From positions 1 to 64,000 of the IMG/VR virus record IMGVR_UViG_3300028735_000004: DNA of 64,000 nt; one strand, 5' to 3'. The translations under genes and the position numbers were made by a program. The DNA is from a virus (taxonomy: Duplodnaviria > Caudoviricetes). Positions 1 through 13,671 of the stretch are shown here, piece by piece. The notes beneath the pieces were generated by a model, which worked only from the letters and a program-made list of their open reading frames with translations, ran no database searches and was not told the origin of the DNA. Position 1 is the first letter of the stretch. The number at the start of each line of letters is the position of its first letter.

Positions 1-93
1 ATACCTTAACCCTTTCTCACACGAGCGCCCTTCCCTTCTCGTCCGCACGCTGGCCTACTTACACTTACGCCAGCACCCTTTGTTTTAGGAAAT

Positions 94-576
94 CTAGACG
101 ATGGAAACCTTGAAGCCAGCAGCAGTCAAAACCTTCACATCGTCGGAATTCCAGTGCGCGCTTTCTTCCTGAAACAAATCTACCTCGAAGAAAGCATCCG
201 GGTTATAGGCGAGAGTTTCCTCCGCGTCGTGAGACAAACAACCGATCTCACAACCATCTTTGGTGAATCCGCCCTGGTAAAACTCCAAGTCTCCCAGGAC
301 GAAGCTATCGACGGTCAAATCGCTTGCTTGAATGTAGATGCGTTCCTTATCGTCGTTGGAGATTCGCACGAAGGGAATCTCACCTTTACGCGCGTGCTCC
401 CAACCGTCAGGATCATAGGAGACGGAATCGTAAAAACCGTCCTTATGGAGCTCCCAGTGAAAGTTAGAGTTTTCCAACCTGCACTCTACGGTATCTCCAC
501 ACACGAGCCCAAACGTAAGGCTATCGTTGGTGCGAATGAAATCATAGAGCTTGCCCTTGAGGGTAATGCCATCCAT
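94..576 (-). CDS. Hypothetical protein in the GC-rich early-like region (~160 aa)
   Basis: Track ORF is 94..702; the Met at 576 (MDGITLKG) follows GGAG with 6-nt spacing and is the likelier start. Confidence 0.65.
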   Translation of the reverse strand: MDGITLKGKLYDFIRTNDSLTFGLVCGDTVECRLENSNFHWELHKDGFYDSVSYDPDGWEHARKGEIPFVRISNDDKERIYIQASDLTVDSFVLGDLEFYQGGFTKDGCEIGCLSHDAEETLAYNPDAFFEVDLFQEESAHWNSDDVKVLTAAGFKVSIV

Positions 577-754
577 TCTTTTCTCCGATTCTTTGGTGGG
601 AGTCGATTCTCCTACTTTCACCTTTACGGGGATACTTGTTTTTATCCTTTGGAGATAACCACCAAAATTAGGTTTCGGTTTCGTTAGCTTAGAACTCCAC
701 ACTTATACGCATACGGTTTACAAGGCTAACCGTAAACCTTTTTCGTATCTTGGC

Positions 755-818
755 CCTACTACCTTGATAGGTAATCTCTGGTAGTAGGAGACGGGGTTTT
801 GTTGTTAGGATTACCCCG
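755..818. other. Two adjacent intergenic inverted repeats (RNA hairpins or operator)
   Basis: CCTACTACC 755-763 pairs with GGTAGTAGG 780-788; CGGGGT 792-797 pairs with ACCCCG 813-818. Confidence 0.5.
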
Positions 819-829
819 AACCTATTGTC

Positions 830-1219
830 TCACCTACCGGCCTGGAGCGTGGCCAGAACCGCCGCGCGCTGCTCAGGGGTCAGAGCCGAGGCATTCTTGA
901 GAATTCGATCCAGCGACTTAGACGCGCGCTCAGCCTTCTTCTGCTCTGCCTCGGCGCGCCGCTGTTGCTCGGCCGTTCTCAGAACGATTCCACCGTCGCG
1001 ACCCTGCTTGGCCATCACTTCCTGATGATACTGCAAGTGAATGACAAGTAGATTGTAAGCCACGGGAACCGGCACCCCGAAATCCTCCGCCGCCTGCTTG
1101 GTCAGAACCGTGATCTGACGCTTTGCCCCACCGGCCAGAAAATCCTGAATCTCCGCCTCGTAGAAACCCAGGATCTCACTAGCCACATTCACCGTACGCT
1201 GCACGTTATCATTGCTCAT
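830..1219 (-). CDS. Hypothetical early protein, possible winged-helix plus coiled coil
   Basis: Purine-rich SD (AAGAGAG) upstream; GRDGGIVL resembles a wHTH wing; charged AEAEQKKAER coil; first gene downstream of the promoter array. Confidence 0.65.
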   Translation of the reverse strand: MSNDNVQRTVNVASEILGFYEAEIQDFLAGGAKRQITVLTKQAAEDFGVPVPVAYNLLVIHLQYHQEVMAKQGRDGGIVLRTAEQQRRAEAEQKKAERASKSLDRILKNASALTPEQRAAVLATLQAGR

Positions 1220-1354
1220 TGTAATACTCTCTTTCTTGTGTGTTTTTCTTGTTTGGTTGTTTCGCGGTTTTACTGTCCCGCCGACACTTTCTTAGTTAGT
1301 CTGTCAAGGGTACGTTGCGTTTTTTCTTACCGCCGTTTCCCTTCTTACCTTTCC

Positions 1355-1382
1355 AATCTAACCAGGCTCGCTTTGCTGTCAA
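1355..1382 (-). promoter_or_regulatory. sigma70-like promoter (class A)
   Basis: Minus strand TTGACA-N16-TAGATT. Confidence 0.7.
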
Positions 1383-1429
1383 GGGCTTTTTTTCTTGCCA
1401 CGTTTCCGCTTCGCTTGCCTTGCCCTGTC

Positions 1430-1457
1430 AATCTAAGACCGGGCGGGTTAGTGTCAA
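1430..1457 (-). promoter_or_regulatory. sigma70-like promoter (class A)
   Basis: Minus strand TTGACA-N16-TAGATT. Confidence 0.7.
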
Positions 1458-1525
1458 GGCCCGATTGCGTTCTTTCTTGCCAGTCGCAGTTAGCCTTCCT
1501 TCCGACCGTTCCTTACCTGGAATCC

Positions 1526-1553
1526 AATCTAACCATTGCTTGCGACCCGTCAA
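1526..1553 (-). promoter_or_regulatory. sigma70-like promoter (class A)
   Basis: Minus strand TTGACG-N16-TAGATT; shares TGGTTAGATTGG with the 1355 copy. Confidence 0.7.
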
Positions 1554-1619
1554 GCGTCTTGGCAACCTAACCTTTTTGGTAGGTAATCAAAGGTAGGATA
1601 CGGTGCGAGAAGGTTAGCG

Positions 1620-1657
1620 CAATCGAACATTGTAAGTCGCCGGGTGAGATGGGTCAA
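1620..1657 (-). promoter_or_regulatory. sigma70-like promoter (class B)
   Basis: Minus strand TTGACC-N17-TACAAT followed by GTTCGATTG. Confidence 0.7.
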
Positions 1658-1820
1658 TGTAGGCAACCAAGAAAGGTAGGATAGTGTCGGGTGATGTAGG
1701 CAGAGTGTTGGCACGCTTCTTGCATGTGGTAGGGAAAGGTAGGACAAGGTAATACAATGTGGTTGGCACGAAATTTGCATATGTGGGATAAGGTAATGAA
1801 AGGTAGGACACGCTCTAATC

Positions 1821-1857
1821 CAATCGAACATTGTATATCCTCTATCGGCCCTGTCAA
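1821..1857 (-). promoter_or_regulatory. sigma70-like promoter (class B)
   Basis: Minus strand TTGACA-N16-TACAAT followed by GTTCGATTG. Confidence 0.75.
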
Positions 1858-1901
1858 GAAAACAAGTGGTAGATGTAAGACAGTGTGTGCCGTGCTCGGG
1901 C

Positions 1902-1938
1902 CAATCGAACATTGTATGTCTTAGATCCGCCTTGTCAA
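1902..1938 (-). promoter_or_regulatory. sigma70-like promoter (class B)
   Basis: Minus strand TTGACA-N16-TACAAT followed by GTTCGATTG. Confidence 0.75.
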
Positions 1939-2070
1939 GATGTAGGCATTTACTTTTCCAAAGCATCCAAGATCGCCAATTCGTTTTGAATGGCTGCGAA
2001 TTCTAAGCACGCACAACCAAGGTGCAACACAATAGGTAGTAGATGGTAGGATAGACAGGCACAACCTATA

Positions 2071-2208
2071 TTATGTAAATGATAATATGTTTATGTAAAT
2101 AATAATATCATAATGTATTTATGTAAATAATAATATCATAATGTATTTATGTAAATAATAATATCATAATGTATTTATGTAAATAATAATATCATAATGT
2201 ATTTATGT
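2071..2208. repeat. Tandem repeat, 4 perfect 28-bp units plus degenerate flanks
   Basis: TTATGTAAATAATAATATCATAATGTAT starts at 2091, 2119, 2147 and 2175; partial copies at 2071-2090 and 2203-2208; no spacers. Confidence 0.95.
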
Positions 2209-2820
2209 GTATAATGTTATAGGCGGGTGTAGTATGTTGTAAGAGCGTGTGCGTTAGTGTGTGATATGGTGTGTTAGTATATGGTAGTGTAGTGCAATGT
2301 AGTGTCATATATGGTAAGGTAGGATATGGTAGGGTGATGTCAGGCAGGGTAGGTTAGGGGTTAGGCCCGCTCCAAGGTAAGGGATAAGAATGGGCATTGC
2401 TGGCACGCTATAGCCATTAGAAAGGGCTTTGCAGCATTGGATAGGGGAATGGATAGGGAACCTTTGAAAAGGTTTATAGGGCAATTCTGAAAGGTAGGAT
2501 AGTAGGGGACCCTTTCCTACAAGATAAGATAAAACACACAATGTAAAGAAAAGAAAGAAATGTAAGATAAGAAACACAATGTAAATAAATGTAATAAAAA
2601 GAAAGACAAAAAGTTGAAAGGTGGTAGGATGTAAGGCGACCTCCTACCCTCAAGGACAATGTAGGCAACCGTCCCATATATCGCACGGGAGAGGAGGATG
2701 TGGGCAGGTGTAGGTCCTCCCCCCGATTAAGATTGGGGCAAAAATAAATAAAAAATAAAAATAATACACACTCTCATTAAAGTTTAAATCAAAATCTACT
2801 TACCCCATCCGTCTATTTGT

Positions 2821-3085
2821 TTATTTTACTTTATTCCAAGTCCTACGAGTAATTACATCTTTAATTGTATATTTAGATACATTATACTTTTCCGCTAACA
2901 TTTTACAAGTTAAACCATTTTTATAATCTTCTCTTATTGAAGCAACACTGTTTTCATTTAATTTAACCTTATGTTTCTTTTCAAAATCTAAATCCACTAC
3001 TATATTATCAATAGTTTCAAGTTTATACCAATTGCCATTTAACTTTCGTTCTTTATTCGTTCTTTATAAAACTATTTACATAACA
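2821..3085 (-). pseudogene. Remnant ending in an HTH of the kind found at homing-endonuclease C-termini
   Basis: Manual translation KLNENSVASIREDYKNGLTCKMLAEKYNVSKYTIKDVITRRTW; 5' part broken near a TAAAGAACGAA duplication. Confidence 0.5.
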
Positions 3086-3092
3086 TAATTCC

Positions 3093-3347
3093 TCACATCA
3101 AATTCAATAATCTTTCCACCGATTCTTTATATGGCTGGAAACATTCATACTGGCAATACAGTTCAAATTGTGTTTTCATACCTATCATTGACTCTATACT
3201 TTGCATTTCTAAATATAATTTCTTTGCTATCTTCTTCTTATTATATTTTGGCGCCAAGAATGTAATTGTGTGTTTTAATGTCTCTTCAAAATAATTTTTT
3301 TTGCTGAAGAATATTGAATTCATACTCTTCCCCGTCCTCATTATCAA
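3093..3347 (-). CDS. Small hypothetical protein, C-tail family (possibly 5'-truncated)
   Basis: Ends ESVERLLNLM. Confidence 0.45.
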   Translation of the reverse strand: MIMRTGKSMNSIFFSKKNYFEETLKHTITFLAPKYNKKKIAKKLYLEMQSIESMIGMKTQFELYCQYECFQPYKESVERLLNLM

Positions 3348-4218
3348 TTAACTTTCGATATTGAGCTTTCATATCGCCTTCAATAGTTTGCTTATACTCA
3401 CATCAACACCAAATACTTCTCCACCGCAGTTAGATACGGCTTAATAATTGATTTAGTTCTGCTGCAATTGAAATTCCGCCGGCTCTCTTACCATTTGAAT
3501 AAAAATGATAATATTTTGAACGATATCCTTTTCCGACTTATTTCTTGAGATATATGCTTTTACCACACCCTCCAACAAATCTAACATATCAGCATTTGAC
3601 CATTTCCAATGCACACTATCATATTCAAATGTATGTTAAAACTCATCGTCATATATTTTTATTTTATAAGAATGCGATGAAATTTGGTATATAATTAGTT
3701 ATCGCAGTGTATTGTTTCGTCGATTTCAATATTTAAATTATGGAACATTTTATAACTTTTATCTTAAATTAATTAGTTTCTGCATTTCTTCCGCAATTGT
3801 TTGATATTTACGAATTCTTTTAAACAGCTGAAATTGTTCTTCAAATTTATTAGCGAATAAGAAGATAATGAATTTTTAAACTCCATATATTTTATCATAT
3901 TTTTGGCGATGGCTTTGTTGGAAAGATTATGTTGTTGGGCGGCGATTTACTTCTTCGTGATGTTCTTCAAAGGTTATTTCCCACATCATCAAATCGTCTT
4001 CGTAAATTGCCGAAAGATAATAAAAATCATATGTTGCGTTTTTTTCCAATTGATACCCAATCTCCATTTGAAAGCGTATAATCTGTTCGTGTTATTCCTT
4101 CTATTTGCTTTATATAATAAGAAGCCGGATAATTGGTGCATTTTATTCTGTGGCAATTCAATCTCGAAGCGTTCAATATAGTATCGCAAAGCAAATATAT
4201 TCTGTCATTGTAAGCATT

Positions 4219-4605
4219 TCATAATAAATTCTTCATTTTAATAACATAACAATCTAAACCGTCAAGAGAAAAGTTTTGTAATGTGGTTTTTTGAAAATAT
4301 TTGGTTATTAAAGATAATGCTGCTTCATCTATATAATATTTTTCCTGCTCATCGTGTATTACTTTAACGAAAAAAGTATCTACCAAAAAAGATGTAATGA
4401 TTATTTTAATTGCCGGGGAAGTGCTTAAGGTAATATCTATATAAAAATTTCTGTAAAAAGTATAAGATTTGAAACAACAACTTGTGTCAGAACATATATA
4501 GTTATGATAATTAAGTATTGATTCAGCTTTGATTTCGTGTAGTTTTTGACCACACAAACAGCAATAATCAATAATTAATTGTTCAAGAAGATTTTTTATT
4601 TCCAC
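4219..4605 (-). CDS. CxxC small protein, C-tail family
   Basis: CCLC motif; ends IKMKNLL. Confidence 0.7.
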   Translation of the reverse strand: MEIKNLLEQLIIDYCCLCGQKLHEIKAESILNYHNYICSDTSCCFKSYTFYRNFYIDITLSTSPAIKIIITSFLVDTFFVKVIHDEQEKYYIDEAALSLITKYFQKTTLQNFSLDGLDCYVIKMKNLL

Positions 4606-4662
4606 TCTCTAATATATAAATTTGTTCCATCTACATTTGAATTTTGTGTATAATATGGTCTT

Positions 4663-4947
4663 TTAAAATCTTTTAGAATTTTTTCGTTTAAATTCTGGAA
4701 TTAACTTTTCAATTTCTTCAACTGTCATATATTCCAATATAAGATATGATTGTAAATATATCATTAAATTATTTACTACATTTAAATTTCTTTCCGAATA
4801 GCATTTAATAATTTGTTTGATTTCTTCTTCCAAATAATTTTCAGAATTAAACTTTTTAAGGCCAACATCAAACACTTCGGATTTAAAATCTTCATCAACA
4901 ATATAAAATCCATTTTCTGCAGGATCAAATTTTATGTATAAAAACAT
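4663..4947 (-). CDS. CYSxRNLNV-family small protein
   Basis: IIKCYSERNLNVVNNL matches IINCYSSRNLNVAKNL of 34476..34799. Confidence 0.7.
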   Translation of the reverse strand: MFLYIKFDPAENGFYIVDEDFKSEVFDVGLKKFNSENYLEEEIKQIIKCYSERNLNVVNNLMIYLQSYLILEYMTVEEIEKLIPEFKRKNSKRF

Positions 4948-5222
4948 TATATTAATACCTTATATTTTGTAAGATTTTTTCCATAGTGAATATTTTGCTC
5001 TAAAGTTGAAATATAAAATCTTGCCGCCTCTGGAAAAGGTGTTGTATTATTTGATAAATGATTTAAACAATAAATATAAAATTCAGTATATAAAGATTTA
5101 TTATTTTTATCATTTATTATAATGTCTTTTACACTTACATTTACATTATCTTCAACGCTCCACATAATATAAGAAAGAGCTGTGATAAATCCATACTTTA
5201 ATGCTACATCAAAATTACTCAT
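4947..5222 (-). CDS. Small hypothetical protein, C-tail family
   Basis: Ends TKYKVLI; coupled to its neighbours. Confidence 0.7.
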   Translation of the reverse strand: MSNFDVALKYGFITALSYIMWSVEDNVNVSVKDIIINDKNNKSLYTEFYIYCLNHLSNNTTPFPEAARFYISTLEQNIHYGKNLTKYKVLI

Positions 5223-10400: not shown

Positions 10401-10928
10401 CTATAATAATACAAGTTTATTAAACATTTTATTTATTAATAATTTAGACCAATCTGTTATTTGTTGATATTGTGGCTTATCTATTGTAAAAAATGATTTA
10501 TTTATTTCAAATTTTTCTTTATTTAATTTATCAATTAAATTATCTATTTGGTCGATTTGATTTTTCCCAGCCACTGTATTTAATATGGTAAATTTAGATG
10601 TCAGTGCAACGGAAGTATATCTGCTTATAAAATGACTGGCTTTAATAAAATTATCATTACCGCCAATTTCTATGCTATAAATAAATGTTCCATATTGCCT
10701 GTTTTCATATACCGAATTACATAATATTCTATTAAGACGGTTGTTTGAATAAAAATATTTATAATTGCAGCATTGTTCTACTGGTTGTAAAATATAATCC
10801 TCATCGAAATATTGGTAATCATAATAATCTTCAACATAATGATTAACTGAACTATCGTGAATTAAAATAGGGTTATTGCAATCAAAACATTTAATACAAC
10901 CGTTATTATAAAATTCGTTATAATTCAT
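10401..10928 (-). CDS. CxxC protein, C-tail family
   Basis: CFDC; ends KMFNKLVLL. Confidence 0.7.
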   Translation of the reverse strand: MNYNEFYNNGCIKCFDCNNPILIHDSSVNHYVEDYYDYQYFDEDYILQPVEQCCNYKYFYSNNRLNRILCNSVYENRQYGTFIYSIEIGGNDNFIKASHFISRYTSVALTSKFTILNTVAGKNQIDQIDNLIDKLNKEKFEINKSFFTIDKPQYQQITDWSKLLINKMFNKLVLL

Positions 10929-12636: not shown

Positions 12637-12666
12637 AATATTTTTATCAAAATAATATTTATATAA

Positions 12667-13047
12667 TTATAATAATAAAATATATTTATTAAAATAATAA
12701 TTTAATTTTTCATAATTGCAACAAAATTTATCCAAGAACTGAGCCTTTTCATATTTCTGACTGAATATCGTTTTATATCTATAATCATCTTTAATTCTGA
12801 TGTCAAGTATATTAGAAATAAAATAATATGAAATTTGATAGTCTTTAAATGTAAAAGTGATATCAAACAAAACCAATTCATAATCATATTCGGCAAATAA
12901 TTTATAAGTATCAAACTTAAAAGTTTGACATTGTATGCAGTAGTAGTATTCTTTATTTTGATTGTGTTTTATGCCATAGCCGCACATCGGGCATTGATTT
13001 TTAATATATAGTAAAAAGTCTATAATATACATTATGTTAATATACAA
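12667..13047 (-). CDS. Zinc-ribbon small protein, C-tail family
   Basis: CPMC...CIQC; ends FNKYILLL. Confidence 0.75.
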   Translation of the reverse strand: MYINIMYIIDFLLYIKNQCPMCGYGIKHNQNKEYYYCIQCQTFKFDTYKLFAEYDYELVLFDITFTFKDYQISYYFISNILDIRIKDDYRYKTIFSQKYEKAQFLDKFCCNYEKLNYYFNKYILLL

Positions 13048-13323
13048 TATACTATATCACCATATATTTATGTCTTAAACAATAAACATCGTGCAGCCTT
13101 AGTCCTGGTTTATGATTATTTTAGTATTTTACTATATTTATCTTTGCAGGTAAAATATACTTCTAAAATTTTAATATGTACCTGCCCAACAATTATTCTA
13201 ACAAATAATTTCCAATGTAATAAATATGAATAATATGTTTTAACTTTATCTATAAGGTGCTTGAACATAAAATATTTCCTTAAATAATATTTTCTTAAAT
13301 ATTTTTTTATATTATTATTTTAA

Positions 13324-13671
13324 TTAAAAAAATATAGAATATTTTTTATAAATGTTTAACAAATTCTCTAAATTATTTTGAGGCCATTTTAATTTTAACT
13401 CATATCTTTGATTGTTATCAAATAACAAAGAACTATCTTTATAAAAATTAAATTGTATAGTTTTATTCCAGTACAATTTAACGGATGCTTCAAATAAGTT
13501 ATAATTATTGTTGGCGGTTAATTCAAAATATAGATTTAAATGTTTATTGTTACAGAAAACTAAAAGATCTAACCAATCCAAATCTCCCACTTCCATTTTA
13601 GTATTACAGAAAGGACAATTTAAAAAATAAATATCTTTCCAATGATACTCTTTACCGAATTCAGCAATCAT
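13324..13671 (-). CDS. Zinc-ribbon small protein, C-tail family
   Basis: CPFC...CNNKH; ends YKKYSIFF. Confidence 0.75.
   Translation of the reverse strand: MIAEFGKEYHWKDIYFLNCPFCNTKMEVGDLDWLDLLVFCNNKHLNLYFELTANNNYNLFEASVKLYWNKTIQFNFYKDSSLLFDNNQRYELKLKWPQNNLENLLNIYKKYSIFF

What the first reader, a model, noticed from the sequence alone, without database searches (positions are those of the whole stretch)
1355..1938. Six tandem leftward sigma70 promoters in two sequence classes
Seen: three TTGAC[AG]-N16-TAGATT units (1355, 1430, 1526) and three TTGAC[AC]-N16/17-TACAAT-GTTCGATTG units (1620, 1821, 1902), all on the minus strand and aimed at the two GC-rich genes. Established: tandem strong host-RNAP promoters lead the first-injected DNA in T7 (A1-A3) and T5, where they can help pull DNA in and soak up polymerase. 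Inference: this is the immediate-early entry region. The invariant 9 nt downstream of the class B -10 element could be an operator, a discriminator or the 5' end of a family of short RNAs.
Basis: partly seen in the sequence, partly recalled or inferred. Interest (0 to 1): 0.68.

Follow-up and report, generated by a model that had tools for sequence, protein, structure and literature searches.

The report
Tandem early promoters of huge phage
These six repeats are real-looking start signals for the host's RNA polymerase at the head of the early region of an uncultured 244-kb phage, a familiar design (as in phages SPO1, K and T7); only a fixed 9-letter tail on three of them is unexplained.

Summary
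Observation confirmed: six minus-strand TTGAC-N17/18-TAnnnT units at 1355-1938; 20,000 shuffles gave at most 2. A 91%-related phage keeps the class A hexamers while spacers change, has one more unit, and has intact a seventh that is broken here (1307). A distant relative (31% protein identity) repeats the layout: AT-to-GC step, polar CCTACC array, 16-nt-spacer promoters, same winged-helix first gene. The array heads a 19.6-kb region with 18 co-oriented promoter-like sites against 1, plus tRNAs and orphan genes. Contig depth over at least 18.7 kb of it is about twice the genome body, which fits a long direct terminal repeat. This is indirect: no read ends were available. Best reading: an SPO1/phage K-type host-takeover module driven by host sigma70, possibly of a deltaproteobacterial host. 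T7-like DNA pulling is unsupported. The class B tail covers the discriminator and start site, is invariant in four copies and forms a 13-bp dyad; an operator is possible, a short-RNA family is not supported. Side find: a hairpin with a fixed 15-nt loop follows the first gene in three lineages and recurs in other large phages. Earlier scan notes flagged the GC step and polar motif in this genome only. Verdict: new member of a known kind.

The parts
1902..1938 (-). Class B promoter B1 (TTGACA-16-TACAAT plus 9-nt tail); start of a 56-nt block (1861-1916) that recurs at a fourth class B unit outside the window
1821..1857 (-). Class B promoter B2 (TTGACA-16-TACAAT plus tail); spacer 10/16 identical to B1
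1620..1657 (-). Class B promoter B3 (TTGACC-17-TACAAT plus tail)
1566..1597 (-). Hairpin between the two classes, at the purine-skew switch; its loop holds GATTACCTA, a variant of the conserved loop at 764-778
1526..1553 (-). Class A promoter A1 (TTGACG-16-TAGATT)
1430..1457 (-). Class A promoter A2 (TTGACA-16-TAGATT), preceded by an A-rich tract near 1478-1470; its -10 overlaps an orphan TTGACA at 1431
1355..1382 (-). Class A promoter A3 (TTGACA-16-TAGATT), A-tract near 1396-1388; spacer differs in the relative but stays 16 nt
1280..1307 (-). Relic seventh promoter: -35 intact, -10 (TACAAT) lost in a 13-nt deletion; intact in relatives L004/L005 and run X3
830..1219 (-). First downstream gene, 129 aa, predicted winged helix (1-81) plus long helix; five distant homologs found
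755..788 (-). 9-bp hairpin with loop GAGATTACCTATCAA (764-778), kept after the same gene in two distant relatives
94..576 (-). Second GC-rich gene, 160 aa, no family or fold assigned
1573..2628 (-). Polar CCTACC array, 12 copies (GGTAGG on the + strand: 0 in the 61 kb right of 2760; 0.6 expected by shuffle)
2082..2215 (.). 28-bp AT-rich tandem repeat; two and three copies fewer in other assemblies; the contig-depth step is first visible across it
2739..2740 (.). GC change point (about 41-50% to about 25%); candidate edge of the terminal repeat

Best explanation
The six units are strong promoters for the host's housekeeping sigma70 RNA polymerase. They head the immediate-early (host-takeover) module of a ~244-kb AT-rich phage, and that module most likely lies in a ~19-kb direct terminal repeat beginning 0.2-0.8 kb upstream of the array. 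On entry, host polymerase fires them in tandem into a winged-helix gene, orphan genes and tRNAs, and further promoters of the same type carry transcription through the module; later genes probably switch to a phage sigma factor. The two classes are two lineages of promoter cassette that multiply and drop out by local recombination. The class B tail (-6 to about +3) is held by selection, most simply as discriminator and start-site sequence. Shown: sequence, conservation, unit gain and loss, strand bias, depth step. Inferred: activity, timing, terminus, host, role of the tail.
For: Far above chance. Hexamers and 16-nt spacing kept while spacer letters change in L004/L005; one extra unit and one restored unit there. 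Same layout in a relative at 31% protein identity; a matching promoter precedes the homolog in three more contigs. 18 sense against 1 antisense sites in the 19.6-kb region, 13 against 12 in the body. The module's consensus also lies upstream of groES, clpB, dnaK and tRNA genes in bacterial genomes, 34 of 80 listed titles being deltaproteobacterial types. Run X1 contig depths 52.8, 49.5, 52.3 and about 49.6 (by subtraction, for a 14,252-nt contig of 32% GC) against 24.8 for the body; X3 6.4-6.8 against mostly 3.3-4.3. Phage sigma factor at 56792-57421. Precedents: PMC3896407, PMC9241854.
Against: No transcription start was measured. Contig depth is not a copy number, X1 may be the source sample, and shallow runs X2 and X5 show no clean step. 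GC bias could contribute to the step. The bacterial matches are largely orthologous promoters, so not independent, and the pattern was built from the module consensus. The full six-unit array and the exact class B tail were seen only in near relatives.
Confidence: 0.75

Rival explanations
1. The class B tail completes an operator: CAAT-N5-ATTG is a 13-bp dyad overlapping the -10 and start site, bound by a dimeric phage repressor, plausibly the winged-helix product of the first gene. Class B would then be shut off after the first burst while class A stays on. Compatible with the promoter reading.
For: Tail 9/9 identical in all six pairs of four copies while spacers share 4-10 of 16 and the next 20 nt share 5-8 in five of six pairs. 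First gene predicted as a winged helix, pLDDT 87. A distant relative has a promoter-like site with the similar tail GTAGATTG.
Against: One arm of the dyad is the -10 hexamer itself, so only 4 bases make the symmetry. The centre is also invariant, which a dimer operator does not need. Four contigs with the winged-helix homolog lack the exact tail. Fold matches are middling (best Z 7.7, rmsd 3.0, 74 aligned) and show no function.
Confidence: 0.2
2. T7-like entry: the promoters sit at the leading end and host polymerase transcribing from them pulls the genome into the cell.
For: Tandem strong promoters within about 1 kb of a candidate end, after a short-repeat array. Transcription-dependent entry from A1-A3 is established for T7 (PMC13128918).
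Against: No T7-like RNA polymerase gene follows: the largest ORF found in the region is 680 aa with no Pfam match. Earlier scan notes describe a baseplate, which suggests a contractile tail (not checked here). With a terminal repeat the array is at both ends, so its position does not show which end enters first.
Confidence: 0.15
3. The promoters are real, but the region is an internal variable early island with no terminus nearby; the depth step comes from GC bias or from a second phage sharing the module.
For: The step follows the GC step closely; X2 and X5 show no clean doubling.
Against: Depth stays at 49.5-52.8 over contigs of 32-50% GC and is 2.03 times the body on average, which a smooth bias would not readily give. 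A second phage would need an identical 18.7 kb at equal abundance.
Confidence: 0.2
4. The class B tails are the 5' ends of a family of short RNAs, or starts of short peptides (ATG TTC GAT TGG; the three copies are in one 138-codon frame, 1550-1966).
For: Invariant 9 nt at the expected start; a 56-nt block is identical at two sites, and both copies share two changes in run X3; spacings of 81 and 201 are multiples of three.
Against: Downstream sequences are unrelated in three copies; the 56-nt block has no stable fold (z +0.88); no terminator in 1-5000; no Rfam match. Relatives lose the ORF's start codon and carry 10- and 11-nt insertions; 8 of 13 listed changes alter residues.
Confidence: 0.07
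5. Assembly chimera: a GC-rich piece of another genome joined to the AT-rich body.
For: Abrupt GC step at 2739 and a depth step nearby.
Against: Single contigs cross the GC step in X1 and X3; ENA and JGI assemblies agree with the window; a distant relative shows the same step.
Confidence: 0.02

Closest known systems
[quoted passage not shown] 1998)
   Same: Large phage, cluster of small early genes under host-type promoters, long terminal repeat (inferred here), phage sigma factor for later genes (SPO1's from my own knowledge).
   Different: No sequence match to cultured phages; module about 19 kb against 11.5 kb; GC-elevated head; six or seven promoters stacked before the first gene; 16-nt spacers.
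Staphylococcus phage K (Kayvirus) long terminal repeats (PMC9241854)
   Same: Earliest transcripts come from the terminal repeats, from host sigma70-type promoters.
   Different: Measured by RNA-seq in K, only inferred here; different clade and probably a Gram-negative host.
T7 early promoters A1-A3 (PMC13128918) and T5 pre-early promoters
   Same: Tandem strong host promoters near a genome end; a short-repeat array upstream, as at the T7 left end (own knowledge).
   Different: No T7-type RNA polymerase follows; transcription-driven entry untested; long rather than short terminal repeat.
PeSL cassettes of T4-type phages RB49/phi1 (PMC2839356, PMC4122927)
   Same: Repeated early-promoter cassettes among orphan genes; units gained and lost between close relatives.
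   Different: No terminator stem-loop attached to each promoter; units are stacked in one intergenic array.
Jumbo phages with long direct terminal repeats: vB_PcaM_CBB 22,456 bp (PMC5259590), XacN1 66 kb with tRNA genes (PMC5852040)
   Same: A repeat of about 19 kb carrying tRNA genes is within the known range.
   Different: No relationship to these phages was shown.

Membership tests
Housekeeping sigma70-type promoter | -35 TTGAC(A) and -10 TAnnnT at 16-18 nt | tested here: met
Housekeeping sigma70-type promoter | Hexamers and spacing kept in relatives while spacer letters change | tested here: met
   class B hexamers covered only by near-identical strains
Housekeeping sigma70-type promoter | Same pattern upstream of bacterial housekeeping genes | tested here: met
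   (groES, clpB, dnaK, tRNA); hits not independent
Housekeeping sigma70-type promoter | Transcription start 5-9 nt downstream, made by host holoenzyme | not testable with these tools
   needs dRNA-seq or in vitro transcription
Long-terminal-repeat early module (SPO1, phage K) | Region present twice per genome (2x coverage) | tested here: inconclusive
   2.03x in X1, about 1.6x in X3, no clean step in X2 and X5; contig depths only
Long-terminal-repeat early module (SPO1, phage K) | Fixed physical ends from read starts | not testable with these tools
   no raw reads served
Long-terminal-repeat early module (SPO1, phage K) | Small orphan genes under many co-oriented host promoters | tested here: met
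   18 against 1 sites; gene and tRNA lists
Long-terminal-repeat early module (SPO1, phage K) | First region transcribed after infection | not testable with these tools
   uncultured phage
T7 A1-A3 transcription-driven entry | Single-subunit phage RNA polymerase gene after the early promoters | tested here: not met
   no ORF over 680 aa found in the region, and that one has no Pfam match
T7 A1-A3 transcription-driven entry | DNA entry depends on host transcription | not testable with these tools
   needs a rifampicin entry assay
PeSL cassette | Promoter joined to a terminator stem-loop | tested here: not met
   0 terminator-like sites in 1-5000
PeSL cassette | Repeated cassettes at indel borders between relatives | tested here: inconclusive
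   one unit gained and one broken; no gene swap at a cassette border shown
Repressor operator | Conserved dyad over the -10 and start site | tested here: inconclusive
   CAAT-N5-ATTG in four copies, but one arm is the -10 itself
Repressor operator | Specific binding by a regulator | not testable with these tools
   candidate winged-helix protein only predicted
Short non-coding RNA family | Shared body, fold and 3' terminator | tested here: not met

The most novel reading that the evidence does not exclude
The array is the switch of an undescribed immediate-early circuit in this huge-phage group: the winged-helix protein made from the first gene reads the class B dyad (or the polar CCTACC sites) to silence half of the promoters, and the fixed-loop hairpin that follows the gene in three lineages is an undescribed RNA or DNA signal of the same circuit.
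Probability: 0.18. Interest if true: 0.62.

Novelty: new member of a known kind. Interest (0 to 1): 0.36.

Why it matters
If right, it fixes the orientation, probable end and first-expressed genes of an uncultured huge-phage group with no cultured relative. It shows that promoter pattern, GC step and contig depth can locate a long terminal repeat in metagenomic data, and the promoter consensus hints at a deltaproteobacterial host. The design itself is textbook. Added value lies in the class B tail, the winged-helix first gene and the fixed-loop hairpin, each cheap to test.

Tried and rejected
No whole genome held. No DNA match of 1-2800 among cultured phages; helicase hits only about 25% identical. 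IMG/VR searches with both GC-rich genes, alignment A3, the 367-aa gene and the class B pattern found nothing. The class B pattern in metagenomes gave 8 hits: one is this phage, the others fall into four unrelated sequence contexts with single copies, taken as chance. No RNA holder listed. An adapter-like loose end at 2717 in run X2 is one shallow contig and is not counted as a terminus. The 138-codon ORF 1550-1966 was rejected as a gene. By eye, the tail does not match rRNA boxA or known LexA boxes (own knowledge); its likeness to the tRNA T-loop is not backed by a stem. ESM Atlas gave no usable hit for either gene; Foldseek had no match at E<=0.001. Five other large phage records had no stacked class A array by exact pattern. 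The myxobacterial-virus preprint had nothing on promoters. The primary SPO1 paper was not held. The pair count on alignment A4 is biased, because loci were picked for having stems; one search is the fair test.

Full report
Observation. Class B (-35 at 1938, 1857, 1657) has TACAAT and the tail GTTCGATTG. Class A (1553, 1457, 1382) has TAGATT followed by G. Five spacers are 16 nt and one is 17. Neither class pattern occurs elsewhere in the window. In 20,000 dinucleotide shuffles of 1220-2000 the most co-oriented sites was 2, against 6 observed.

Setting. The window is the reverse complement of part of a 243-kb contig. Its body is about 25-30% GC and encodes helicases, a primase-like match and a sigma factor. 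No cultured phage is close. GC rises abruptly at 2739. Reading leftwards from there come a gene-poor stretch with 12 polar CCTACC copies (1573-2628; none on that strand in the 61 kb to the right), a 28-bp tandem repeat of variable copy number, the class B units, a hairpin at the purine-skew switch, the class A units with A-rich tracts upstream of two of their -35 boxes, and gene 830-1219. Beyond the window's left edge the contig continues with tRNA genes and small orphan genes. Across this 19.6-kb region there are 18 promoter-like sites in the sense direction and 1 against; the 61-kb body has 13 and 12. One of the 18 is a fourth class B unit with the same 56 nt that follow unit 1938.

Conservation. 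A relative with 91% identity in the first gene (L004/L005) keeps all three class A hexamer pairs and the 16-nt spacing while spacer letters change. It has an extra class A unit with a TTGCGA -35. The orphan TTGACA at 1307 is a full promoter there: the window's lineage lost its -10 in a 13-nt deletion (also run X3). A distant relative (31% identity, L029/L030) shows the same order: AT-rich body, GC step, ten polar CCTACC copies, purine switch, two 16-nt-spacer class A-type promoters, the homologous gene. Three more contigs have one such promoter just before the homolog.

Host type. A pattern drawn from the module's consensus (TTGACA, 16-nt spacer ending GTGST, TAKATT) was scanned in GTDB. Of 80 listed titles, 34 are deltaproteobacterial types (Binatia, Desulfobacterales, Syntrophobacterales, Myxococcales), and many hits lie upstream of groES, clpB, dnaK or tRNA genes. 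This shows the pattern is a normal housekeeping promoter and hints at the host group. Many hits are orthologous, so the count is a lead only.

Terminus. In run X1 (probably the source; its 1833-nt contig has the same length and span as L003) contig depth is 52.8 over 58-1890, 49.5 over 1887-2119 and 52.3 over the next 2342 nt leftwards. The body contig starting at 2179 has 24.8. Subtraction at position 1878 gives about 49.6 for the contig that follows the fourth class B unit, which is 14,252 nt long and 32% GC. The weighted ratio is 2.03 over at least 18.7 kb. Relative X3 shows about 1.6x; shallow X2 and X5 show no clean step. A long direct terminal repeat explains this best, with one edge within about 1 kb of 2150, perhaps at the GC step. 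Contig depth is not a copy number and no read ends were available, so this stays an inference (about 0.7).

Mechanism. Host sigma70 polymerase would load on the stacked promoters as soon as the DNA enters and read into the first gene. That gene is predicted as a winged helix plus long helix (pLDDT 87; best structural match Z 7.7, rmsd 3.0 over 74 residues). No intrinsic terminator lies in between. Stacking gives a strong early burst, and gain and loss of units suggests redundancy. The class B tail spans -6 to about +3. G at -6 is shared by 13 of 18 sites and fits the sigma discriminator contact (established knowledge). The tail is 9/9 identical in four copies whose spacers share only 4-10 of 16, so it is probably under selection. 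Discriminator and start-site tuning is the simplest reason. A repressor site is the main rival, because CAAT-N5-ATTG is a dyad and a candidate reader is next door, but one arm is the -10 itself. Short RNAs or peptides are not supported.

Comparison. [quoted passage not shown] Repeats of this size are known (CBB 22,456 bp; XacN1 66 kb with tRNAs). It shares tandem end-proximal promoters with T7 A1-A3 (PMC13128918) but lacks the polymerase gene, and DNA pulling is untested. It shares cassette turnover with PeSLs but lacks their terminators.

Side find. A 9-bp hairpin with the loop GAGATTACCTATCAA lies 40 nt after the first gene (755-788). Two distant relatives have the same loop on different stems after the homolog. 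Of 91 IMG/VR stretches with the 15-mer, 13 (10 distinct stems) have a flanking stem of 8 bp or more, against 0.15 expected with shuffled flanks. Most are large phage contigs. Rfam had no match and a text search found nothing relevant. It deserves its own study.

Verdict. Real, conserved and well explained by a known design: new member of a known kind, interest 0.36.

Noticed in passing
window 755-788 (-); L029 10520-10553; L245 about 10447-10480; L007, L034, L042, L047, L064, L072, L079, L084, L091, L113: Hairpin with fixed loop GAGATTACCTATCAA on freely changing 8-10 bp stems; follows the winged-helix gene in three lineages; 13 of 91 viral matches have such a stem against 0.15 expected; no Rfam match. 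Candidate undescribed phage RNA or DNA motif.
   Followed up: partly
window 1573-2628; L029 7249-8931: Polar CCTACC array between the GC step and the class A promoters in two distant phages. Could be an end-processing, replication or Chi-like anti-nuclease signal; untested.
   Followed up: partly
window 1485-1508 against L004 202-225: A 24-nt segment between promoters A1 and A2 is inverted in the relative (23/24 identical).
   Followed up: partly
window 1861-1916 and L001 about 13502-13557: 56-nt direct repeat at two class B promoters about 4.2 kb apart; in run X3 two contigs share the same two changes, suggesting concerted evolution.
   Followed up: partly
window 713-745 and L001 about 12871-12903: A 33-nt hairpin-forming repeat (88% identical) occurs twice in the early region.
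   Followed up: no
window 1-87: This stretch is a separate high-depth contig (125.8) in X1 and a JGI locus also ends here, so it probably has another copy; none was found in the 17 kb fetched.
   Followed up: partly
L027 857-15424: Seven tRNA genes in the early region, four of them Leu (three CAA, one TAA), and a tRNA-His with a 46-nt intron.
   Followed up: no
L246 5093-9976 (IMG/VR 361-kb record): Another large phage has seven co-oriented promoter cassettes with near-identical spacers and shared downstream sequence near its contig end, PeSL-like.
   Followed up: no
window 2821-2997 (-): 58-aa ORF with weak helix-turn-helix matches (best E 0.0016), just outside the GC step.
   Followed up: no
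window 12637-12701 and 13285-13353: Weak (about 75%) AT-rich matches to the 28-bp tandem unit in two other intergenic gaps.
   Followed up: no
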